64,000 bases of DNA from the NCBI GenBank assembly GCA_001662655.1, contig KV460258.1. The stretch is one strand, 5' to 3'. Below are positions 1 through 38,834 of the stretch, one piece after another. This DNA comes from Pseudogymnoascus verrucosus. Taxonomy: Eukaryota. A model generated the notes under the pieces. That model had not been told where the DNA came from, searched no databases, and worked only from the letters and a program-made list of their open reading frames with translations. Each line of letters begins with the position of its first letter. The stretch's first letter is position 1. Both the position numbers and the translations under genes were made by a program.

Positions 1-159
1 GACGAACCAGAACACCCCCGATGCTGGCTACACGCAGTCGGTTTATGGTACTACGCTTGTTGGATACTCTGGCCAGGGCGTGGGACACACTGTTCCTGTC
101 CATGAGGCGGTCGACCTTGCTTGGTTTGGCATTGCTTAGGTCGGGGGTGATGGAGCCGA

Positions 160-960
160 AAAGCTATCTGTGCATATGTATACAGCGTACATATTGATGG
201 GAATTAAGCAGCCATAGGCAACCTATGGACTGTCTTGTTTTACATAACCAGGTTAACTTGCTTATTTTAATGAGGTCGATTTTATACAACATGCGCTTTA
301 GTATATCTCTCCGTATAAAATCTATTACTTCGAAGTAGATACGCGCAAATACTATGCGATAACTCGATGGCATTGAACTCGGCGGCATTAAACCCGATAG
401 GGCATTGTCCTCGATACGGCATTAACCTCGATACGGGGTTGGCCTCGATACGGTGCCATTAACTCGATACGACATTGAACCTAGCATAAGCCTCTTAAAC
501 AAAACCCATCAGACGACTTCTGGTCTTGTAGTAGAACACGTCCGGTCATGCGGAACACATCTGGTTTTCAGAACACGTCTAGCTTTGCAGAACATGTTCG
601 GCCTTTACTAAGGAATGTACTCTTAGCCCTGCGAAGGAAGGTGCGTTTGGCACTGCGGAGGAAAGTGCATTCGGCCATGTAAACAAAGTGCGTTTGACCT
701 TGCGAAGGCAGCCACGTTTGGCATTGCGAAGGAAGGTGCGTTTGGCATCGCATAAATCGCGTCTGGCCTTGCAGGACACGTTTAGTCTTGCAAAGGCGCG
801 ACTCGCATGTCGAACTCAACATGTCGACCGAACAGGTCTTTGGGTTTTTGCGCAAATTCGCAAGGTTTTAGACAGATATGCGCGCGTCGTTTCGCGGAGC
901 CTCGCGGAGCAGTTGTCGTCTTGTAGGGAAGGGCCTTAGTTCCGCGAGGCAGTGTTTAGT
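160..960. repeat. Minisatellite-rich non-coding patch (17-bp and ~24-bp degenerate tandem units) with one 34-bp palindrome
   Basis: CATTAACCTCGATACGG-like units at ~360-485; GCGAAGGAAGGTGCGTTTGGCAYT-like units at ~630-800; palindrome at 850-883. Confidence 0.75.
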
Positions 961-1274
961 GTTTGGCTCCTGAGGATGCATATACCATAAATAGGGGTAA
1001 GGGGTTAGTCAGTAGTGGCTTGCAACACAATATTCACGCTTCACATCACCGCACTGCATGTTTGTGGCACAATTTGATGGGGTATCCGAAAACGCCAAAC
1101 ATTATCATTGCACGTAGCACAAGCACGATCTAAAACCCAAGGCTGCCACCGCAGCCGCAAATGCACCCCGCGATCGCCATCGCCCCGTCCCCACGACGCC
1201 TCATCCAAACGCATTACTTTCCCCCCGCCAACGACCCCCCTAGTAGGAGCCAAGGCGCACCCCATCATTATCCC

Positions 1275-2347
1275 TCACCACGCGGTGTGTCCACCATCAA
1301 TGACGAGCTCGCTGCCCGTCATGAAGGTGCTCGCATCACTGAGCAAGAACAGTGCCGCGCCCTTGAACTCCTCCGGGGAGCTGAGACGGCCCATCATGTT
1401 CTCGCGCGCCCACAGGGCCTCGAGATGTGGCTCGTCATCGAAGTTCTGCTGCACCATCGGTGTCACAATGTGACCCGGGGACAAGCTGTTAACGCGGATT
1501 CCGTGTGGTGCCCACTCCATAGCCAAGTTCTTGCCGAGCTGGATAACAGCGGCCTTGCTGGAGTTGTAGACGGACGAAATGAGCCCCTTGTTCGCGATCT
1601 TCCCCGACATGCTAGCAACGAGCATGATGTTTCCAGGGGTCTTGTGGGCGATCATCTGGCGAGCAGCCGCGGCAGCCGCGAACATCACACCGCCGTAGTT
1701 AACGTCCATCATCTCGCGCATGTGCTCCTGCGAGTAGTCGATCGCAGGCTGCACGCGCTGGATGCCCGCGGCGGCGATGAGGCCGTCCAGGCGGGAGTTC
1801 TGGGCCGCGATGGTAGCGAATGTGGCCTCCATCTGGGGAACATCGCGCACATCGACCTGCGAGTAGTGCAGCGAGCCGACGCACTCGGTGTCAGCGGCCG
1901 CGCGGGCCTGTGCCTCGAGGAAATCGGGGCCGGCTTCAGGGCGGCAGTCGAGGCAGTGGACTGTAGTTTCGCCGCGTTAGTTTAATTGTGGGGCGGGTTT
2001 TTGGTGGCGGGGTGAGGGGCTCTTCGGGAGAACTTACCGGTTCCGCCGGCTTCGGCGAGGGCTTCGGCCATAGTTAATCCGAGGCCGCGGCCGCCTCCGG
2101 TGACGACGTAGACTTTGCCATCGAGGCGGAAGAGGTCGCGGGTTTTCTTGAAAGTGGTGGGCCTTGTAGCGGTGGGGAGTCTGGAGGAAAAATAACGGTG
2201 AGTTTGGGATCTTAGCTGCGCGGAGGGTCGCGATTGGAGAAGGGTCCTCTGGGGATTGGAACACGGGCGCCCGGAGTCCAGGAGGGAGGTAAATTGGGGG
2301 GATGCGCCTGGGGAGCGTCGGAGGGTCCGGTGGAATACTGACTGCAT
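1275..2347 (-). CDS. Short-chain dehydrogenase/reductase (D-arabinitol/sorbose reductase-like) with a mitochondrial-like N-terminal presequence
   Basis: Exons 2347-2038 and 1960-1275 (intron GTAAGT..CTAAC..CAG) join in frame to 331 aa; [13 protein letters not shown] and VIDGG motifs. Confidence 0.9.
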
Positions 2348-5089
2348 ATTTGTGGTTTGGGGGGGGTTGGTGGTGGGAGGTTTGTGGTAAGAACGAGAGC
2401 AAGGTGGGAAATGGATTGGGTATCGAGTGTGAAGATAGATTCAACGATTGAACGGAGACAAGAGTGAGAGATTGAGCGATTGAGTGATTAGGATGAAAGA
2501 GAAAAAGAGAGAGGGGAGGAGGGGGGGGAAGTGGTTATATATTCTTATTTGGATTCACCCGCAGACCACTTTATTGAATGAGGACTGGTGGTGGTAGTGG
2601 TGCCCTCGTGTCCTCGTGTCCTCGTGTCTTGTATGGATGGCTCGCAGGTTGTGTCCAGTCATACAAACACATACATTACTCAATCAGGTAGAGTACTCCG
2701 GCAGAACAATCTCCTTTTTTTTCTCTCTTCCTTTTCACGATCCTTCGTCAGCCAAAAGCTGAGAGCGGGCGCGGAGTTGAGGGAGGGAGGAGGGGGAAGA
2801 GGGGGGACGAGGGGAGGTACATACTATGGTACTACGATTCTTAGGCGGGAGCAGTGCCGTGTACGTACATGAGTACTCGGCGAGTGTATGTATCTGTCAC
2901 AGAAATGTCAGGTACCTGGATTGATGTAATGGCGTGTAATGTTAAGTGGACTCTGGAACTCTTAGGAGTCTTGGTTGTACTGTGGGCAAAGATGGAGAAA
3001 GGAGGGGAATGGGCTGGGCGATAGTGAGGGGATGGTTGGATGGAGGCGGAGGCGGCGGAGGAGGCGGACGAGGAAGAAGGAACAGAGCAATAGGGCGCGC
3101 CACTAGATCTAGGCCACTTCTAGACTTCTAGACCACCACTTGTGCAGCGATTTAGCAGTTTTTAGCAGTTACGGAGGTGTTGTTTAGCAGCACTTAGCCT
3201 TCCTAGGCGTGCTGGGATTGATGGGATTACTGGGATTACTAGGATTCTACTTCTTGGTATGCAGAAGGAACAAAAAGGGCAACAGGGAAGGCGCGCATGA
3301 CTTCTTCGATTCTCCACAGTTTCAAAAAAGTATTCCTTCTTAGGTCTTGGTAGGTCTTGTTAGGTCTTGTTGGGTGCTGGGTAGTACTGTGATAGTGCTG
3401 TGATAGCCCTTCTCAGCCTTGCGCTAGAGTCAGCGTTACAGCACAGTAATCAGCGACGTACTCACGCTACTGCGGCTGCCAAGTGTCCATCTCTCCACCA
3501 GCTCTCCACCACTTCTTCGCTGTCCTCTCTGTTTCCCATCATCCCCCCACCGGTCCCCCTCTGTTGTCTCCCTCCTACCCTTTCTTTCCCTTCCTAATGG
3601 CTCAATCCTGCCACAGCCTTGCATGACACGGGGGTTCCGCAACTGATTTGCCGGTGAGCACCACCGCGCATCCTCTCCACCGCTGTGCATCACCTCCACC
3701 AACGTGCAGTAATGTACTTCACACAAACCCTCAGCGTCCCTCTCTTGGCCATCTCTATCTATCCGTATCCATCTTTGCCCATCGCTACCCCATCGCGTTA
3801 CCCTTTCCCACCTACCGCGTCCACGGACCGGCCACGGAGAATAGGGGCCATAGGGTCCGTTACGAATCTAGTACGTACAGAGTACGTATAGAACAAAACG
3901 GAAAACAGAGTGGAGAGCTGATGTGGGGAATTATTCCCGTGGAGTATCTGTACATCCGTGAAAATCATGTTTATATGTGGGCAGTTAGAAGAAAGAAAAA
4001 AGCGAAAAGCGAAAAGAAGTGAAAAGATTGCAAATGCCATAAAAAGCTACGCACAGGACCCTATTTTAAACCCGCTTTTTACATGCCCATCCTCCCCATC
4101 ACGACATTGCTTGGTGCGGTGTGGTTCGCTCCCATCGTGTCGCTTCGCCCGTCACATCGTGAAGTGGCGTCTCCGTGCCTTCTTCCCCTCTCTTTTACCC
4201 CCCCTTCTCTCTCCCCCCCCAAAAATAACTCCCCGAACTCCCCGAGATCTCACCCACACTCCTCCTTCTTTCTCACCACTCCTCCCTCTCCCGGACTTCA
4301 TCCGCCACACCGCCGGCCATCCCCATCTTTCCTCCCCCATCCCACATCCCCAGTATCGGTCATCGGACCCAAAACACCCACATTCCTGCGCGCTTCTCAC
4401 CCCCACCGCTCCTCGGCCACGTCCCTCCCGCGCCGCACGCCTCTGCTCCATGAAGAAAGGAGTGCGAGGCTCTAGCCCCTTCTTCGCTCGTCTTGCCCGC
4501 ATCCAGCTTCGAGTGCCGGGGCGGTTATGTACTGTACCAAAGTACGCGAGAGCTCATAGCGCTGATCAACTATCGCCTCTCCGTCGCCGCCGCGTCGATC
4601 CCATAAAAAAGGGCCCTGGCTGGTCCACTTGTGCCATTCGGGAAGGATGGGATAAGGCGAGGTTAATTGGGATGTGCCAAGGTATGTGTGAGATGTTAGC
4701 CCTATAAATATAGTAATATCCGTTTGATGTTGTATGCATCCCCCATGTGTGTTGCTCTGTTGTCGTGTGCATCGCATCTGTTGGTTGTTTCATGGGATTT
4801 TATCAGTTTGTTGCAGGTCAGGTGAGGGTGTGAGGGAAGCCTGATCGGGTAGGGGCGAGGGCAATCGCGGCGAAATGCTCAACACTCAACAACTCGCGAT
4901 AACTCTGGGTTTGAGGGCTCCGAGATCGGTTGAGCTGCTTATGTCGTCTTCTGGTATGGTATACTATAGTGTTCGCACGGTGGATGTGCCATGCATTGAG
5001 GAAGTTTCAACAGGCAGCAAACTGCACCGCGTATCTAGAATCGAGCATTAAGCAATGAGCAGGACGCAACGAGTAACCAACCTTCCATT

Positions 5090-7480
5090 TTCACTCTTTC
5101 ATTACTCATGTCATTACACACTTCATTTCGCATCTCATTTCGCATCATGTCTCATTACGTCTCATCGCTCTTCCTAAAGGTTGCTCCTATCATCATTACG
5201 CTTCTACCATTGCGCTTCTATAATTGCGCTTCTATCATACGCTTCTATCACCCCTTCTATCTTACGCTTCTATCATTCCTTGTATCATACGCTTCTGTTA
5301 TTGCTCGTCTCATTACTCCTTATATCATCCTATGTCTCATTCATAGCTTCGATCGCTTGCATCGTGTTGCACGAGGCTTCGATTCGATAGCCTCGATCGA
5401 TTGCATCGTGTTGCAAGAGGCTTCGATTCGATAGCCTCCATAGCTTGCTTCATGGTGCAAGAGGCCCATATCACTGCCCATATCATTGCACACATACATG
5501 TCATAACATAACGCTATAGAAGCCTATGGTATTGCATTATTGCGCATTTTCGTTTAGAAGCTATCGAATATGCGCTGGAAACCAAAACACCGCGAAGCCC
5601 CGCGGGAAGTATTCTTTGCGCATATTCATTAAGAAATAATCGAATTTGCGCTGAAGTTGAAAGCACTGCGAAGTCCCGCGGAAATCATTTTGCGCATATT
5701 CGTTAAGAAACAGTTGAATTTGCGCAAATTTCCGTTCATCTGCAAGAGGCATCGATAGCTTCGATGGCTTCGATAGCAAGAGGCTTCTGTAATGGAAGGC
5801 TTCTATGATGCAAGAAGCTTCTGTATCGTAAGAGGTTGTACGTAAGACGTCTTCTACTACGAGACGCTTCCGTGCGGTACGATGTTCCGTGCCGCAAGCG
5901 GCTTCGATAGCAGGAGGTTTCGATGGCCTCCCCCTTGTTATAAGAGGGATGCGTTCCATAAGTCGGTTCGTTCCCTGCCGCATAAGGCTTCCGGTTGCAA
6001 AACTTGTATGCCTTCTACCGCAAGAGGCTTCGGCTCCATAAGAAGCTTCGTGTCATGAGGCCGTGTCGCAAGGGGCTTTAATAGCTTCGATAGCTTGCTC
6101 CGTGCCATAAAAAGGCTCGCAAAGGGCTGCAAAGGGCTTCCGTGCTGCAAGAGGCTTTGATGGCAGGCGGCCTCATGTCATTAGAGGCTTGCTTTGATAG
6201 CTTTGTAATGCCTGCAAAGCTTTCATGATACCTGCGAAGCCTTCGTTGTGCATACGAATCTCGATCATGCCGAAGCTTTGCAAAGCTTTTTGGCGCAAAT
6301 TTAGTAAGAAGGGTCTAGATTTGCGGAAACATCTAGCATCTTAATTAACATGATCAAGGTCGTCATGGTCGATCCTAATGGCGTCAATGATCCTAATGGC
6401 GTCTATGACGCGGTCAAACCTGCTACTATGCCACGGCCAAGATCGGCATGGGCGATTGAGCCTGCTAATATGATAACATGGTTTAAGGTTTGCACGGTCG
6501 AATTTACTGTTACTACATAATTAAGCCAGCGCTATCGGATCTGTTAGTATGACAAGGTTAAGGTCGGCACAATCGAAGCTACTATCATGACATAGTTAAA
6601 GGTTGGTTGAAGTTAAAAGCTAGTATGACAGGGTCGAAGAAGCAGGATCGAGGGGATCGATTTATAGATCTTTTGCCCATACTCAACTTCACATGGTTGA
6701 ATTTGCGTAGAGGCTAAACGAGTGGACCAAAGAGCCAAACGAGAGAATCGAAGAAGCCAAACGAGAGAATCGAAGAAGCCAAACGAGAGGACCGACTCAT
6801 AGATTTATTGCGCATTCTCATCTAGATGGGTCTAAATATGCGCAAAACGCCAAATCCCGCGAGATCTCGCGAGATCACTATAATTTACTCATATCTGAGT
6901 AGAATGGGCTGGATTTACGCAAAAGAATAAATCCTATGGAAGCCTCTATAGAAGTCAGAGGGTTCAAATAGAAGAAGTCAGGGTGAGCTCTTATGGAAGC
7001 ATGCAATGGCGATGGCATTGTTACGTTGATCGTTAGGTTGATATTACATCCTTAAGCCGCATCCGTTTCCTTCGTGCCTTCCTTTCCTTCGTGCCTTCCT
7101 TTCCTTCGTGCCTTCCTTTCATTTCGTTAAGCTGCCTTTATTTGATGTCATTAAGCAAGCCTACTTTGTTTCGTGATTTAGCGCAAATTAACCTAAATTT
7201 AGACAGATGTGCGCTATATTCTAAAATCGACACCGTCGATTTAGGCAAGTTTTACGAAGTTTGTGCGCATATTCATGTATAATAAGTTAGATTTGCGCAA
7301 AAGGCTGCTAAAGTCGCATTTGTCAAGTCGCTCTTGTTAATTCGCTTTCGTCAATTCGCATTTATCAAGTCGATTTGGTGTCTCTGCGCATATCCATTTA
7401 AATGGAGCTGAGTCTGCGCAAAAACTAAACTACACCAGTTTATGAGCCTATAAGTTTACGAAGCCACCGCTTTTCTGGTG
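5090..7480. repeat. Mosaic of degenerate minisatellites carrying 10 copies of a 34-bp imperfect palindrome
   Basis: 44-bp tandem at ~5344-5465, ~75-bp tandem at 5542-5725, CAAGAGGCTTC units at 5740-6190, ~40-bp units at 6420-6640, 22-bp at 6733-6789, 17-bp at ~7067-7120; no credible ORF. Confidence 0.85.
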
Positions 7481-7741
7481 TCAAAGGTTTCGGACAATAT
7501 TCTTCACAAGTGTGGCAAGTTCTCTCACATCATCGAAGTAGTTTTGAGGCAAGATCCAATATTGCTCGCCGTTCTACGATCCTCATCCTACCCCTTATTC
7601 TCGCTATCGGTATCTAAACTCCGCGAATCGCCTTCCAAAATCAAACTCTTAGTCCCCTCTAGATCTCGTCCCCTTCACCACTCCCAAAAAAGCACTCATT
7701 CTCAAAAATTCCAACCCCTGATTCCTTCAAACCTCCCCCTA

Positions 7742-8516
7742 TCACCACCCAACCATTCCCATCCGCTGCAAAAACGCAAACAGACTTCCCCCCGGCGTCG
7801 CACCACCATACATACTCTGCCATCTCGCCGCGAACGAACCTACACATCAGCCATGTTAGCCCCTATCACCCCTAACCCCCAAACCAAACCAACCCAAAGA
7901 AAACCAAACAGCAAGGGACAAAAAAAGGAGGCCATCACTCACCCAATCTAACCCCCACCCCCCCAAACCCCAACCCCTCCACCACCCACGGCGCAACCAC
8001 CACCAACACCCCAAGGGCAACAACCATCGCCACCACCCCCGCCATAACCGGATGTTCCCCAATCCACCCCTCTACATCCCTGTTCGCCGTCTCCACAACC
8101 TCCTTCGCAGCCCCAAGCGGGACACCGGCTTCGATGGCGGCGGTGATGGAGTGGAGGATTGCGAGGGCGAGGGACGATGTCCACGATGTGGTGCTGACAT
8201 CGGAAGCAGTAGTAGGTGGAGGGGGGAAGGTGGTGGAAAGGCGATGGCGGAAGATGGTGGGGGTGCGGGAGAAGAGAATCAGGCCGCTGAATTCGTCGGC
8301 GAGTTGTGCGTCGGTTTTTGGGACGCCTGGGACTAGGAAGTTGGTAGAAGGTGAAGCGGCGGATGTGGTTGTGAGGAGGGGGAACTTTTCGTCGAATGAC
8401 TGGTGGCTGGATGGGAGGGGTGCTTTGAGGTCGTGGTAGGTGTGGGTTTGTTGTGTGTGTCGGACAGTGGTGGTGCCGACGAGGCGGTTCAGGAGGGTTG
8501 AGAGGTAGGCGCCCAT
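7742..8516 (-). CDS. Hypothetical membrane protein with C-terminal IFI6/IFI27 (Ifi-6-16)-like motif
   Basis: Exons 8516-7943 and 7839-7742 (GTGAGT..GCTAAC..TAG) give 223 aa ending LGFGGVGVRLGSFAARWQSMYGGATPGGSLFAFLQRMGMVGW*. Confidence 0.75.
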
Positions 8517-9337
8517 TTTTTGGGTTGGTTTGCTTGTAGGAAGGGTGTATGTGCGGTTTCTCGTAAGATAGAAATGGCACAACCACTATCTATACCCCAG
8601 GCCCCTCATACAAACGAGGCTCCAGCTACCCGCCGAAAATCAAATAACCCCGTTCCACGTTTCTACCTCCCCATCCAATGCCTGCCTATCATCCATCAAG
8701 TCTGCCTCGTTGTTGGCGCTACATGCACCTCGCCAGCACCTGTCGTTGGCGCTACCCCACCACTGTTGGTGTTGTTGGTGCCACTCCCACCGCGGTCCGC
8801 GGTTGGGCCCGTGGCGCGGTGGGGGCGGGTAGCCGTTTTGGGTGTTGGATCATGGGTTGTGGGCGGGCGGGGTAAGGCTGGGATGCGGGAGTAGAAGGAT
8901 GAGGGGGTTATGTGTGATGGACATGGGGGATTTAAGATAGGGTTGGTTGTTATTGCGTTGTTTGGATGTGGTGAGGCTTTCCATGTGGTGAACTGTTGTA
9001 AGTAATGTGAGAGTTCGTGCTTCTTGGGCTACCACAACCCAATAGAAAGAAATTGTCACGGTTTAGAAGTAATTTACTACCGTTGAGATAAAAGTCTCCA
9101 TTTTCAAATATGGACGAGAAAAATATCCATCATCGCCTAATCGAGGCACTCAAGAACGAACGTCTACACGTCTGGTATCTATCACCTGGCCCCTGGAGTA
9201 CTAAACCCCACGACCACCTAACCCATCAGTCCTACAAAAAGAAGATCACATCCCAACGCCAGTCATTAATCCTCCACACCCCCAAACTTCATAACCGCCA
9301 GCCCTGCGGCCCAGACGCTTCAGGCACCCTAGACACC

Positions 9338-34300: not shown

Positions 34301-35858
34301 CGGAGTACACAGCAGGATCGCATCACGTCGTCGTACATCGTACAGCCGGCGCACTCGCGCACTCGCGCACGCACAGCAGGTGTAAAGCCGACCAAACAGC
34401 GCCCGCAACGCCGAACACTTGAAGCTCGGTGCGGACATCCCACTAATCCCTATACGGCACTTACGATACCTACGATACCTAACAGCCTTAGCACGTATAC
34501 CATACCGGGGACAAGTTCATCTGCATTGCATACTTGGGCACACGACCCTCCCTCCCTAAAAATGTCTCCCTATCCACCTTCCTGTTTGCAAACCCCCTGT
34601 CCTGATTGGCCCCACGGCGCAATATCAGCACCCATCTCGGTCAAACTCTCAACGGACCTAGTAGCCTAGTCCGGGTTCCCTCTCAGCCACTAGTCCCCAT
34701 CAGTGCGATGGCGCGACCCACGACTCGCAGCCATTTGCGACGCCCGTAAACCCGCTGCGACGCCCCCCCGGCGCGCCCATCGCTTAAGCTTTGCTGGCAG
34801 CTCGCTAATGCAGGCGCTAGATACGGATGGGGGAGGAGATAAGCACCTTCCTATTCTGGGATGGTGCGTTAGCGGGGGGTTTTGGTGGTGGCGTCTGGTG
34901 TGGGCAGGGGTTGCCCGGCAGATCGCAACGTTGCAAGCTCGGACGTCCCCGTTGCTCCTGCCGGATTGGGGATGGCGGGGATTTGTGTGGTGGGTGCCCT
35001 GTTGGCGTTTTTGGGGGGGATGGGGGAGTCCCTGGTGTCCCTGGTGTCTTGGGTGGGAAGGACCCTCGTGGTCCCTGGTGCGGTTTGTACTGTTGTATTC
35101 TTTTGTAGTGGTGTTTGTAGTGCTAGGTATCGCTCTGGCAGTTGGAACAGGGAGGTGATGGGAAATGGGGGAAATGGGGGATGGGTTTAGGATGGGTATG
35201 GGGGAGAGTGGGAGTGGGTAGGAAGGAGAAAGAAGGGAAGGTGGTCAACCATCCTCATCATCATCATCATCATCATCAGCCAGCCAGCCCCCCCAGCTAC
35301 CAATTCCCAATTGCCACAAGCCGAATCGACGAATCCCGTGATTACCATTACTGGTGGTGTTAATGGTGTTAATTCTCCGAGGGAGAGGGTAGTAGTCGAG
35401 CCGAATGGAGGAGGTATCTCTGCGCGCAGTTCTATCCCGTGCTGTACCTGAAGTCAGTTGACTGTATGACGACAATAGTAGTGAAACTGTTGGAAATTGT
35501 TGGCAATAGCATCAATTCTATCAATAGTATCAATTCTATCAATTGTATTAGTTGTATCTATCTGTATATACTGTTTTACTTACTCTACCCTATCTACTCA
35601 GCATCCCATCCTCAACACGACTCGACACTTATCTCCCTATCCATCAATCATCATCCCATCATCCATATCTCCCTCTCCCACTCCACCACCCTCCCACCAC
35701 TCCTCCTCCACTCCTCCCCACTCCTCCCTCCGCCCTCCCAACCAATCACACCCCTCTCCTCGCACGTCAATCACGCTCTCGGCCTCCCCATCTCTCTCTC
35801 CCCCTTCCCACCTTCCCACCTTCCCACCTTCCGCCCTCTTGCACCTCGCACCCGCTAT

Positions 35859-35915
35859 CTTGGCGCCACCTTGGCACCACTTTTCCCTATCTTGGCACTA
35901 ACTGTGGCCCTTGGC
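35859..35915 (-). promoter_or_regulatory. Cluster of four PacC-type GCCAAG sites upstream of PTR2
   Basis: CTTGGC at 35859, 35870, 35891 and 35910. Confidence 0.5.
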
Positions 35916-36827
35916 CCATGGCAATTCCCGGTACCCTTTCTTTCTCGCCTCCCCTCAAGTCAAGCGCCGATAATCATTTCCCATCGCCTCCCATCGCACA
36001 TCGCCCATCACCCATCACCACTCATCACCACCCATCCGCCACCGTCCCCCAACCCCCAATTGACCCTGAATCAATTACATCCGAGGAGCCACGGGACTGA
36101 CACGGGACTGACACGAGGGAGAACTGGGGAATGTCATGTAAATGTATGCACTACTGTAATCTAACTGTACTCAACCACGTCTTCCCCAGTATCCAGTCTC
36201 TAGTATCCAATCCAGTATCCAATCCAATCCAGTAACTCAAATCATCTTCTATCTACCTACTCTATCTAGACTCTATCTAGACTCTATCTATCTAGACTCT
36301 ACCAAGTACCATCATGTACTCCCACACTCCCACTCCCACTCCCACTCCCACTCCTTCCCCCATTCCCCGATTACTCGTGATTAGCTCCTTCTCCTCCCTC
36401 CCTCGTACTGTACTCCTCGTACTGTACTCCTCCTACACACAGACACGCACACGCCATCACGCTTGTCTTTACTTTCCTTCCCCATGCGATCCCCTGTCCC
36501 TTTCCCACCCCTGCCACACCCTTCTCCACCCTTGTCCTCTCTTTCCCCCCACCCCTGTCCGTCCTTACCAAATCCCTGCTCACACCTTCTAATCCCTGCT
36601 ATCCTTGCTCCCCTGCTCCCCTGCTTCCGTCCAACATCCACCCACCCCCAAAAACGACCCCACCTAGTCCAATTCATCCCGACCCCCCCCCTCCCTCTCC
36701 AAGCTCCCTCCCTCCCTGGAGAAACAATAAAACCCTCGTCGCGTCTCCCGCTTCTTCTTCTTTTCCTATCTCTAACCCTTTGGCCTATTCCTAGTCGTGT
36801 GTGCGCTTCACACCAAAGGTATTCAAG

Positions 36828-38834
36828 ATGGGTATGCATTCACCATTGCAATAAAAGGCAATCACAAGCCATGAGGATCAAGATCGCATGCTAACTCTAC
36901 TCGAATGCAGCAACCAGGGAAATCGACCAGTCCATTGACGTTACCGACGAGAAGGGAATCAGAACCGACTCGATCGACCGTCATGCCATTACCAATGTCT
37001 CTGAGGAGAAGCTCGCCATCGACGACGACTATGAGAACAAGCCTACCGATGAGGAGAAGGCGACTCTGCGCCGTGTGCCCGGCTCCCTCCCCGCTGTCGC
37101 CTACCTGATCTGCGCCGTCGAGTTCTGCGAGCGTGCCTCGTACTACGGTGTCGTGGGTCTCATCAACAACTTCGTCAACCGCCCGCTGCCCAAGGGCGGT
37201 AACGGTTGGGGCGCTCCCCCCAGGGGCACCCAGCAGACCGCTGGTGCGCTCGGCATGGGTACCGTCAAGGCCAACGCCGTCAACCAGTCGTTCAACATGT
37301 TGATTTACGCTCTTCCTCTTCTCTTCGGTTACCTAGCTGATGCCCGCACTGGTCGCTTCAAGCTCATTTGCTGGGGTGTTGTTGTCTTCGGTATCTCTCA
37401 CGTGCTCATGGTTGGTGCTTCTGCGAAGCCGCTCTTGGAGAGCGGAAACGCAAAGGCGCCTTACTTTATCTCGGTCTACATTCTTGCTATTGGTGGTGGT
37501 GAGTAAATTCGATTCTCGAGGATTTCTCTGGAGCGCATTTGCTAACATTTTTTTTAGCCATGTTCAAGCCGAATGTGTCTCCCCTGCTCCTCGATCAAAT
37601 GCCAGACACCGTCCCCAAGGTCAAGACCCTGAAGTCGGGCGAGAGAGTCATTGTTGACCCCGAGTCCACGACCGAGAGAGTCATGCTCTGGTTTTACCTC
37701 CTCATCAACATCGGTGGATTCGTGCAGGTCGCTACTACCTACGCTGAGAAGTACATTGGCTTCTGGCTGGGCTTCCTCCTCCCGCTCATCCTCTACCTTC
37801 CTCTTCCCCTCCTCCTGTGGTACCTCAGCAAGCGCCTCGTTCTCCACCCACCGGCAGGATCTGATTTGCCCAACGTCTTCCGTGTTCTGAGTATCTGCTT
37901 CTCGCGTGGTGGATGGAAGAGAATCGGTCGCCACGGCTTCTGGGAGCCGGCAAAGCCTTCCGTCATCGCCGCCTCTGGCAGGATTATTCCTGTGCAGTGG
38001 AACGACCAGTTCGTCGAGGATGTCCGCCGTGCTTTCCAGGCCACCGGTATCTTCTGCTTCTTCCCAATCCAGTACCTTAACGACAATGGTATCGGTTCCG
38101 CGGCCAGTTTCTTGTCGACCATGTTGGTCACCAACGGTGTCCCCAACGACGTCATCAACAACTTCAACTCTCTCTCCATTATCGTTTGCGCTCCTATCCT
38201 GAACTACGGTCTCTACCCCTTCCTCCGCAAGCGCAACATCCACTTCGGCCCCATTGCCCGCATCACCACCGGTCTCGCCATGTCCTCCATGGCTGGTATC
38301 GGCTACACCGTGCTCAACTACTACGCCTACAAGCTCGGCCCGTGCGGAAAGTTCGGTTCGGACAACTGCGTTGACGCCAACGGAGTCTCCCAGGTCGCCC
38401 CCATCAGCATCTGGTACATGGCCATCCCCTTCGCCATCGGCGGTATTTCCGAGCTGTTCGTCAACGTCCCCGCCTACGGCATCGCCTACTCGCGCGCCCC
38501 CAAGAACATGAGGGGTCTCGTCTCGGCGATCAACCTCTTCAACACCGCCGTCGCCTACGCCATCGGCCTCGCCTGCTCCTCCGTCATCCGCGACCCCTAC
38601 CTGACCTGGGATTTCGGCGGACCAGCCATCGTCGGCTGCGTCCTCACCGTCGTCTTCTGGTTCACCTTCAAGCACATGAACACCGAGGAGTACACCCTCT
38701 CCCAGAACGGCGATTACCACCTCACCCTCGAGGGAACCGCCAACGTCGTCGAGGAGAACTCCCAGAACAAGAGCGTCAACCAGCCCCCGGCGATTGCCGC
38801 GAACGAGGAGTTCGGCATGACCCCGAAGCAGTAG
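36828..38834 (+). CDS. PTR2: POT/PTR-family di/tripeptide transporter
   Basis: Exons 36828-36831, 36911-37498, 37558-38834; EFCERASYYG, FKPNVSP, FYLLINIG, YSRAPKNMRG. Confidence 0.93.

What the first reader, a model, noticed from the sequence alone, without database searches (positions are those of the whole stretch)
5542..7419. Array of fixed-length 34-bp imperfect palindromes with variable spacers
Seen: ten copies of GCGCAWATTY-N14-RRATWTGCGC, each exactly 34 bp, at 5542-5575, 5618-5651, 5692-5725, 6293-6326, 6675-6708, 6810-6843, 6887-6920, 7181-7214, 7265-7298 and 7386-7419. An eleventh copy is at 850-883 and a possible decayed one at 313-346. The arms are conserved (often extended by TTT/AAA) while the 14-bp spacers differ, with a weakly directional WAGAA core. 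Constant length with diverged spacers across unrelated flanking repeats is not what tandem slippage produces. Inference: selection for binding by a dimeric protein. Options are a recombinase or transposase site array (loxP and FRT also total 34 bp but use 13-8-13 geometry), a chromosome-structural element (insulator, pairing or centromere-like site, origin), or subterminal repeats of a decayed non-autonomous transposon. I do not recognise it as a described element.
Basis: partly seen in the sequence, partly recalled or inferred. Interest (0 to 1): 0.88.

Follow-up and report, generated by a model that had tools for sequence, protein, structure and literature searches.

The report
Palindrome-cored repeat family between fungal genes
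The eleven 34-base near-palindromes are real, but they are diverged, one-directional copies of a single roughly 76-base repeat unit that was duplicated in place and then broken up by other small repeats, so this looks like ordinary repeat DNA and nothing shows that a protein reads it.

Summary
Observation confirmed. The motif gives 16 strand hits at 9 places against 0.02 expected. At up to 4 mismatches, all 11 copies have exactly a 14-bp centre. A profile finds no further copy in the other 56 kb.

Interpretation only partly supported.
- The copies are not symmetric dyads. In leave-one-out profiles 11 of 11 score better in one orientation. A T/T clash at positions 6/29 is inherited (8 of 11 unpaired).
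- Pairing shows no covariation (79.1% paired against 79.0% in shuffles).
- The repeated unit is longer than 34 bp. It is a 76-bp tandem unit, 2.5 copies at 5535-5725, seen again at 6805-6894 and inverted at 833-915.
- Two copies have decayed. Close relatives keep the block at the same locus, but with units gained or replaced.
- At least one more copy lies elsewhere in the same genome.
- No recombinase or transposase family was found in the 64 kb.

The arms vary less than the centres in the youngest copies (2/20 against 7/14 columns, p=0.017). Some constraint therefore stays possible.

Best reading: a decaying palindrome-cored minisatellite / short dispersed repeat family of an ascomycete. No whole genome was available, so copy number and mobility remain untested.

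The parts
5100..7450 (.). Block B: 2.3-kb non-coding, minisatellite-rich block that holds ten 34-bp units
   Evidence: TRF finds many unrelated small arrays here. GC is 0.444 against 0.516 for the window. No Pfam family matches the ORFs over it.
5535..5725 (+). 76-bp tandem array, 2.5 copies. Each unit is a 34-bp near-palindrome plus a ~42-bp spacer that carries a second small CGCG hairpin.
   Evidence: TRF: period 76, 76% matches, score 217. BLAST of 5540-5651 against 5616-5725 gives 78.6%. Two of these units fold as double hairpins with z of -3.0 and -1.7.
5542..5575 (+). 34-bp unit P1
   Evidence: leave-one-out 27.1 bits forward against 5.2 reverse
5618..5651 (+). 34-bp unit P2
   Evidence: 33.7 against 15.4 bits
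5692..5725 (+). 34-bp unit P3
   Evidence: 35.5 against 13.8 bits
6293..6326 (+). 34-bp unit P4; its right end reads GCGG
   Evidence: 15.0 against 6.0 bits
6675..6708 (+). 34-bp unit P5, decayed (3 mismatches to the pattern)
   Evidence: weak when left out of the profile (E=0.083)
6805..6894 (+). Remnant of the same 76-bp unit: P6, spacer and the start of P7
   Evidence: 68% identity over 91 bp to 5537-5625. The spacers align. It folds as a double hairpin, z=-2.9.
6810..6843 (+). 34-bp unit P6
   Evidence: 33.1 against 10.1 bits
6887..6920 (+). 34-bp unit P7, decayed (4 mismatches; arms differ from P6 at 10/20 positions)
   Evidence: E=1.3e-4 with a profile built without it
7181..7214 (-). 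34-bp unit P8, inverted relative to its neighbours
   Evidence: 20.9 against 11.0 bits in the assigned orientation
7265..7298 (+). 34-bp unit P9
   Evidence: 29.2 against 13.6 bits
7386..7419 (+). 34-bp unit P10
   Evidence: 26.5 against 21.2 bits
833..915 (-). Inverted copy of the extended unit in block A. It comprises a CCGCGAGGCTCCGCG spacer motif, the 34-mer (850-883) and an AAAAACCCAAAGACC tail.
   Evidence: Local alignment of 835-883 to the reverse complement of 5542-5591 runs 15 bp beyond the 34-mer. Flanks were read. nhmmer hits 884-833 on the minus strand, E=1e-11.
250..915 (.). Block A: a second minisatellite-rich block (17/34-, 18- and 24-bp arrays). It lies between a gene end at 139 and the short-chain dehydrogenase gene.

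Best explanation
The 34-bp near-palindromes are diverged copies of one ancestral, directional repeat unit of about 76 bp. The unit runs T-run, GCGCATATTC, a 14-bp centre, GAATTTGCGC, A-run with a CCAAA tail, then a small CGCG hairpin.

The unit multiplied in place as a tandem array, by slippage or unequal exchange. A few copies were inverted or copied to other places. The DNA between copies was later rebuilt by unrelated mini-tandem arrays, which are common in this genome's intergenic DNA. The constant 34-bp length and the near-palindromy are inherited from the founder unit, not re-created at each site.

Shown here: common descent, directionality, the tandem origin, decay of some copies, and turnover between close relatives.

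Inferred: that no sequence-specific protein is needed, and the way the dispersed copies arose.
For: - Direction: in leave-one-out profiles 11 of 11 copies score higher in one orientation.
- Inherited asymmetry: position 6 is T in 9/11 and position 29 is T in 8/11, so pair 6-29 is unpaired in 8 of 11.
- No covariation: 79.1% of cells are paired against 79.0% in shuffles, and 318 of 500 shuffles reach the observed value.
- Tandem origin: TRF period 76 with 2.5 copies. The same unit recurs at 6805-6894 at 68% over 91 bp. It recurs inverted at 833-915 with homology beyond the 34-mer on one side.
- Decay: 6675 and 6887 have lost arm positions, and P6 and P7 arms differ at 10/20.
- Other minisatellite clusters exist without palindromes, at 11.6-11.9 kb and 35.2-36.4 kb.
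- Relatives at about 2-6% divergence hold the block at the same locus. One (X3) has an extra 34-mer-plus-tail unit between 5344 and 5383. Another (X2) has nothing alignable to 6312-6982 (tables 5, 5c, 8).
- No transposase, integrase or recombinase family appears among 71 ORFs; 18 of the 71 have some family.
- No RNA family or tRNA lies in the blocks.
Against: - The arms are less variable than the centres and spacers in the youngest copies P1-P3. Variable columns are 2/20 against 7/14 (p=0.017), and the spacers show 11 mismatches in 40. Pure neutral decay does not predict this.
- No copy shows an indel within the 34 bp despite about 25% mean column divergence. Copies with indels could, however, have escaped detection.
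- Inverted copies (850, 7181) and at least one copy with unrelated flanks elsewhere in the same genome (table 7) need a copying mechanism other than slippage.
- The whole genome could not be scanned, so copy number, spacing elsewhere and target sites are unknown.
Confidence: 0.55

Rival explanations
1. The arms are read by a host DNA-binding protein. The array would then be a functional cis-element, such as a boundary, a terminator-proximal site, an origin or a regulatory cluster. The two GCGCAW half-sites would be held about 29 bp apart.
For: - The outer arm positions are the best-kept part (1.14-1.18 bits against 0.62 in the centre).
- Arms against centres in P1-P3: 2/20 against 7/14 variable columns, p=0.017.
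- The spacing is invariant in 11 of 11 copies.
- The copies are strongly clustered.
- Both blocks lie downstream of gene ends (reading).
Against: - The copies share direction, centre motif and a one-sided flank by descent. Much of the 'conservation' is therefore ancestry plus ascertainment by the arms.
- Two of 11 copies have decayed.
- A close relative has nothing alignable to 6312-6982, which holds three to four units, while its flanking genes align.
- No candidate binding protein was identified. The likeness of TTTGCGCA / TTGCGCAA to known bZIP or copper-factor sites is recalled only and was not tested.
Confidence: 0.2
2. The unit is, or was, a very small non-autonomous mobile element of MITE, REPIN or double-hairpin type. 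Its 10-bp arms would serve as terminal inverted repeats for a transposase encoded elsewhere. Alternatively, the array is the subterminal binding-site region of a decayed DNA transposon.
For: - Imperfect terminal inverted arms with a free interior.
- Copies occur in both orientations.
- A contig of the source genome matches only 5617-5655 and has unrelated flanks. A relative has the same locus (table 7).
- A unit is present in X3 where the window has none (tables 5, 5c).
Against: - No target-site duplication flanks any of the 11 copies. The flanks are an inverted T-run and A-run, not direct repeats.
- The extra unit in X3 replaces 38 bp and is not a clean insertion.
- No transposase family occurs in 64 kb.
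- No long terminal inverted structure bounds the block: block A against the reverse complement of block B aligns only at the unit, score 20 against shuffles 13.9 +/- 1.1.
- Few close copies lie elsewhere: depth in the source run rises by only about one to two unit-lengths over 5401-6000 (table 2).
- Three copies are plainly tandem.
Confidence: 0.2
3. The palindromes are selected for the hairpin or cruciform they form, in DNA or in an RNA.
For: 8 of 11 copies fold better than shuffles as single-stranded DNA (z from -2.5 to -6.9). Three of the four 74-83-nt units tested fold as double hairpins.
Against: - There are no compensatory changes: 3 cells changed on both sides against 3.1 in shuffles.
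- Pair 6-29 is unpaired in 8/11. The inner pairs 9-26 and 10-25 are each broken in 3/11.
- No Rfam family lies in the blocks.
- The unit at 833-915 does not fold better than shuffles (z=-0.09).
Confidence: 0.04

Closest known systems
Degenerate minisatellite / VNTR with a quasi-palindromic core
   Same: Head-to-tail 76-bp units. Decay of older copies. Gain and loss of units between close relatives. Non-coding intergenic position.
   Different: Most spacers have been replaced by unrelated small arrays. Two to three copies are inverted, and at least one lies at another locus. The core keeps an exact length in 11 of 11 copies.
Short interrupted repeat cassettes (SIRC) of Arabidopsis thaliana (PMC10342631; abstract and outline read)
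   Same: Short repeats interrupted by diverse sequences. The authors propose an origin from the internal structure of MITEs.
   Different: SIRCs are described in a plant and are enriched in pericentromeric heterochromatin. Here the repeat is a 34-bp near-palindrome in gene-dense fungal DNA. No link to a MITE was shown.
MITEs and subterminal transposase-binding repeats of DNA transposons (general knowledge, recalled)
   Same: Short inverted arms, a free interior, and copies in both orientations.
   Different: No target-site duplication, no transposase nearby, and no bounding terminal inverted repeats. The unit would be far shorter than known fungal MITEs (sizes recalled).
loxP / FRT recombinase targets (geometry recalled)
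   Same: Total length 34 bp, with inverted arms around an asymmetric centre.
   Different: Arms and centre are 10-14-10, not 13-8-13. The centre is not conserved. No tyrosine recombinase family occurs in the window. The sites are chromosomal, arrayed, decaying copies.
Bacterial REP/REPIN elements and fungal mitochondrial double-hairpin or palindromic repeat elements (recalled; PMC7218506 seen only as a search listing)
   Same: Short dispersed hairpin-forming units, sometimes in pairs or arrays, in intergenic DNA. The 76-bp unit folds as two hairpins.
   Different: Those elements are bacterial or mitochondrial. Here the DNA is nuclear, lies among ordinary ascomycete housekeeping genes, and no associated enzyme is known.

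Membership tests
Tandem repeat / minisatellite | Head-to-tail copies of one unit | tested here: met
   TRF: period 76, 2.5 copies, 76% matches. A second remnant at 6805-6894 is 68% identical.
Tandem repeat / minisatellite | Unit number or content varies between close relatives at the same locus | tested here: met
   X3 has an extra unit between 5344 and 5383. X2 has no alignable 6312-6982 while its flanks align at about 97%.
Tandem repeat / minisatellite | All copies in one orientation at one locus | tested here: not met
   850 and 7181 are inverted. Block A is 4.6 kb away. A further locus exists in the source genome (table 7).
MITE / non-autonomous DNA transposon | Terminal inverted repeats | tested here: met
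   10-bp imperfect inverted arms, 79% of cells pairable.
MITE / non-autonomous DNA transposon | Target-site duplication flanking copies | tested here: not met
   The flanks of 11 copies were read. They are a T-run on the left and an A-run on the right, with no direct repeat.
MITE / non-autonomous DNA transposon | Many dispersed copies with unrelated flanks, and an autonomous partner with the same ends | not testable with these tools
   No whole genome is held. Only one to three extra loci were glimpsed in contigs of the source and relatives. No transposase occurs in the window.
Tyrosine-recombinase target (loxP/FRT type) | 13-bp arms around an 8-bp conserved asymmetric core (recalled) | tested here: not met
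   Arms of 10 bp and a centre of 14 bp with 0.62 bits per position.
Tyrosine-recombinase target (loxP/FRT type) | Cognate recombinase gene nearby | tested here: not met
   71 ORFs of the 64-kb window were scanned against Pfam. No integrase or recombinase family was found.
Symmetric dimer-binding dyad | Two equivalent half-sites with no preferred orientation of the whole site | tested here: not met
   11 of 11 copies are directional in leave-one-out scoring. Half-sites differ at position 6 against 29. Conservation continues on one flank only.
Structured hairpin element kept by selection on pairing | Compensatory changes that keep pairs | tested here: not met
   Covariation score 0.116 against 0.123 in shuffles; 318 of 500 shuffles pair as well.
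RIP-degraded transposon relic | Raised TpA/ApT and lowered (CpA+TpG)/(ApC+GpT) (thresholds recalled: above 0.89 and below 1.03) | tested here: inconclusive
   Block B gives 0.75 and 1.52 (no signature; the window gives 0.74 and 1.21). The short block A gives 0.93 and 1.00, which is borderline.
SIRC-type interrupted repeat cassette | Short repeats separated by diverse, unrelated spacers | tested here: met
   Intervals between the starts of successive copies in block B run from 74 to 601 bp and have mostly unrelated content.

The most novel reading that the evidence does not exclude
The 34-mer with its one-sided tail is the recognition module of an undescribed small nuclear element of filamentous ascomycetes. 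It would be a REPIN-like or double-hairpin-like unit that is copied to new sites and seeds minisatellite-rich blocks. Alternatively, it is a bound cis-element whose two GCGCAW ends must stay 29 bp apart. The lower variability of the arms in the youngest copies, the exact length in all 11 copies, the inverted copies and the extra loci in the source genome and its relatives all fit such a reading.
Probability: 0.15. Interest if true: 0.6.

Novelty: new member of a known kind. Interest (0 to 1): 0.33.

Why it matters
As it stands, this is one more example of how a decaying tandem repeat with a palindromic core can look like a purpose-built array of protein-binding sites. Constant length and 'conserved arms' can follow from shared ancestry and from the way copies are recognised. 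If the arms turn out to be constrained genome-wide, the family would give a rare handle on a sequence-specific DNA-binding or DNA-copying activity in fungal nuclear genomes. It might also bear on how minisatellite-rich intergenic blocks arise.

Tried and rejected
- **Whole-genome scan.** No genome is held for this window, so genome-wide counts, spacing and target sites could not be tested.
- **Metagenome scan.** All gap lengths were populated (8:6, 9:6, 10:4, 11:13, 12:6, 13:39, 14:11, 15:9, 16:7, 17:5, 18:12, 19:2, 20:3). The peak at 13 comes from an unrelated family flanked by CGGGGA and ATCACA. None of the 11 gap-14 hits has the T-run and A-run flanks or the TAAGAA centre. The scan says nothing about the fungal family.
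- **Expression.** No RNA holder was listed for the stretch.
- **Foldback-like or composite element.** The idea was that block A and block B are inverted arms around the dehydrogenase gene. Only the unit itself aligns (score 20 against 13.9 +/- 1.1 in shuffles). The other inverted matches are at chance level by my estimate.
- **RNA genes.** There are 0 tRNA genes. Rfam gave three sub-threshold miRNA-model hits, all at 2710-2807 and outside the blocks.
- **Bacterial-type promoter and terminator scan.** Counts were not above shuffles (6 against 4.4 +/- 2.1; 5 against 2.7 +/- 1.5).
- **Known factor sites.** The resemblance of TTGCGCAA or TTTGCGCA to C/EBP-type bZIP or yeast Mac1 copper-response sites is recalled only. 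The neighbouring genes give no support, and it was not pursued.
- **Literature.** No paper in the library holds both arm strings; 35 papers hold one of them, and all 20 listed look like unrelated primer-type matches. Searches for TTGCGCAA with 'fungal', for MITE, palindromic and minisatellite terms, for MATE/Spe-motif and for double-hairpin elements found no description of this family.
- **Earlier notes of this scan.** Nothing for this genome or this sequence.
Full report
**Setting**

The window is nuclear DNA of an ascomycete. Its ORFs encode ordinary housekeeping and metabolic proteins, among them a KAT11-type histone acetyltransferase, a NUBPL-type (ParA family) P-loop NTPase, SAM decarboxylase, GH16, MFS and POT transporters, and fungal transcription factors. 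Of the 71 ORFs scanned, 18 have a Pfam family, and none is a transposase, integrase or recombinase. The closest Atlas clusters of the acetyltransferase are from Ascomycota. No whole genome is held for the window, so everything below rests on two sources: the 64 kb itself, and contigs of one probable source run and three relatives laid on bases 1-9000.

Yes.
That is 16 strand matches against 0.02 expected, and 0 of 100 shuffles reach 16.
- With up to 4 mismatches the decayed copies at 6675 and 6887 join. All 11 copies then have a 14-bp centre.
- At up to 2 mismatches 8 of the 9 hits over gaps 4-30 have gap 14. The ninth overlaps a real copy.
- A profile of the copies finds nothing else in the other 56 kb (best E=0.74).
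- The suggested relic at 313-346 is not supported (E=5.7).
- GCGCAWAT half-sites inside the blocks all belong to 34-bp units.

**What the copies are**

When put in the better-matching orientation, all 11 copies align without gaps to one directional consensus:

tTTTT GCGCATATTC aTtTAgAA..agtT GAATTTGCGC AAAA..ccAA

- The direction is not an artefact of how I oriented them. In leave-one-out profiles each of the 11 copies scores higher in its assigned orientation, mostly by 10-20 bits. The closest calls are 7386 (26.5 against 21.2) and 6675 (11.1 against 8.6).
- The two arms differ in a fixed way. Position 6 is T in 9 of 11 and position 29 is T in 8 of 11, so that 'pair' is unpaired in 8 of 11.
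- Across the ten putative stem pairs there is no covariation. 79.1% of cells are pairable against 79.0% after shuffling, 318 of 500 shuffles do as well, and 3 cells changed on both sides against 3.1 expected.

The near-palindromy is therefore inherited sequence, not pairing maintained by selection. The element is not a symmetric dyad.

**The unit is longer than 34 bp and has a tandem origin**

- Copies 5542, 5618 and 5692 are 2.5 head-to-tail copies of a 76-bp unit (TRF, 76% matches; 78.6% by BLAST).
- The stretch 6805-6894 (copy 6810, its spacer and the start of 6887) is a 68%-identical remnant of the same unit. The spacers align and share a small CCGCGA..CGCGG hairpin.
- The copy at 850 is an inverted copy of the extended unit. 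The alignment to the reverse complement of 5542-5591 runs 15 bp beyond the 34-mer. The CCGCGAGGCTCCGCG spacer motif lies on its other side.
- Three of the four 74-83-nt units tested fold as two hairpins (z of -3.0, -1.7 and -2.9). The unit at 833-915 does not (z=-0.09).
- Elsewhere in block B the intervals between the starts of successive copies run from 74 to 601 bp. They are filled with unrelated small arrays of 14-, 16-, 17-, 18-, 22- and 44-bp units.
- Such clusters of mini-arrays also occur in the window without any palindrome, at 11.6-11.9 kb and 35.2-36.4 kb. They are a general trait of this genome's intergenic DNA.

**Decay and possible constraint**

- Copies 6675 and 6887 have lost arm positions. 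The arms of 6810 and 6887 differ at 10 of 20 positions and their centres at 6 of 14.
- Against a purely neutral picture, the three youngest tandem copies show 2 of 20 variable arm columns against 7 of 14 centre columns (Fisher p=0.017), and 11 mismatches in 40 aligned spacer positions.
- This is modest evidence from three related sequences, but it should not be ignored.
- There is no RIP signature in block B (0.75 and 1.52 against 0.74 and 1.21 for the window). The short block A is borderline (0.93 and 1.00).

**Relatives and other loci**

- Contigs of three differently labelled relatives cover the region in the same gene order. X2 covers 3024-6312 with 73 differences and 37 gap positions. X3 covers 6781-8553 with 96 differences.
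- The block is therefore older than these lineages and is not a recent insertion.
- Its content turns over. In X3 the sequence runs from window base 5344 into a 34-mer like 5616-5652, then 22 letters that begin with the family's AAAACCC tail, and then rejoins at 5383. That is an extra unit in place of 38 bp.
- In X2 nothing aligns to 6312-6982, although both neighbouring contigs run on with unlike sequence.
- In the probable source run itself, loose ends at 5617 and 5655 show a record that matches only the 34-mer plus a few bases, with unrelated sequence on both sides. X2 has the same flanks. I infer one further locus shared by both genomes.
- Two more such matches occur in X2 and X5 (5688-5728). 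They could be other loci or parts of those genomes' own versions of block B.
- Depth in the source run rises by only about one to two unit-lengths over 5401-6000. Close copies elsewhere are therefore few, and diverged ones would not have been laid at 80% likeness.

**Reading**

The simplest account that fits all of this is a short repeat family. Its founder unit of about 76 bp happened to contain a 34-bp imperfect palindrome.
- It grew as a tandem array.
- It was occasionally inverted or copied elsewhere.
- It is now decaying while other mini-arrays rebuild its spacers.
- The fixed length follows from descent without indels in a short segment, helped by the fact that copies are recognised by their ends.

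I give this 0.55. Two rivals stay alive because of the better-kept arms, the exact length, the inverted copies and the extra locus.
- A host protein reads the two GCGCAW ends (0.2).
- The unit is a tiny MITE-, REPIN- or double-hairpin-like mobile element, or the binding-site region of a dead transposon (0.2). Against this rival: no target-site duplication at any of the 11 copies, no transposase in 64 kb, and no bounding inverted structure.

Selection for a hairpin as such is unlikely (0.04).

**Comparison with what is known**

- **Decaying minisatellite.** The array behaves like one with a quasi-palindromic core. I did not test that note.
- **SIRC.** In architecture it resembles the short interrupted repeat cassettes described in Arabidopsis (PMC10342631; abstract and outline read).
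- **loxP/FRT.** It fails the tests for a loxP/FRT-type site, both in geometry and in the absence of a recombinase.
- **MITE.** It fails on target-site duplication. Copy number could not be tested.
- **Literature.** No paper in the library holds both arm strings. Four further searches found no description of the family.

**Limits**

- There is no genome-wide view.
- No RNA run was listed.
- One search printed only 40 of 766 single-base differences, so arm and centre rates could not be compared between orthologous arrays.

Noticed in passing
L017, L022, L056, L062-L064, L071, L076, L077, L088, L093, L101 and about 30 more loci: A large, unrelated family in metagenome contigs of 32-57% GC. It reads CGGGGA GCGCAAATTC, an A/T-rich 13-15 bp, GAATTTGCGC, then (A/G)TCACA. 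One contig carries three copies 1-2 kb apart (L062-L064). In one sample several copies lie near the ends of long contigs (L045, L050, L065). It is probably a bacterial dispersed palindromic element.
   Followed up: no
window 35250-36436: A dense cluster of about ten different small tandem arrays (units of 3-18 bp) in strongly C-skewed DNA (GC skew -0.51 over 36001-37000). It lies upstream of a POT-family transporter ORF and holds none of the 34-bp units.
   Followed up: no
window 5339-5465: A 44-bp unit repeated 2.9 times carries its own small inverted repeat (CTTGCA..TGCAAG). In relative X3 a 34-mer unit sits in place of part of the first copy.
   Followed up: partly
window 6273-6288: A perfect 16-bp palindrome, AAGCTTTGCAAAGCTT, lies just upstream of the 34-bp unit at 6293.
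   Followed up: no
window 7247-7259 and 7452-7463: A direct repeat AAGTTT(T)ACGAAG brackets the segment that holds units 7265 and 7386. It could be chance in this repeat-rich DNA, or the trace of a ~200-bp duplication or insertion.
   Followed up: no
window 2400-5100: About 2.7 kb of low-complexity, purine/pyrimidine-skewed DNA with no Pfam-matching ORF lies between the dehydrogenase gene and block B. Relative X3 shows many skips and replacements here (table 5), so it evolves fast.
   Followed up: no
window 56-133: A second contig of the probable source run matches the last 78 bases of the gene that ends at 139, with 14 differences (table 8). This suggests a paralogue elsewhere in the genome.
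   Followed up: no
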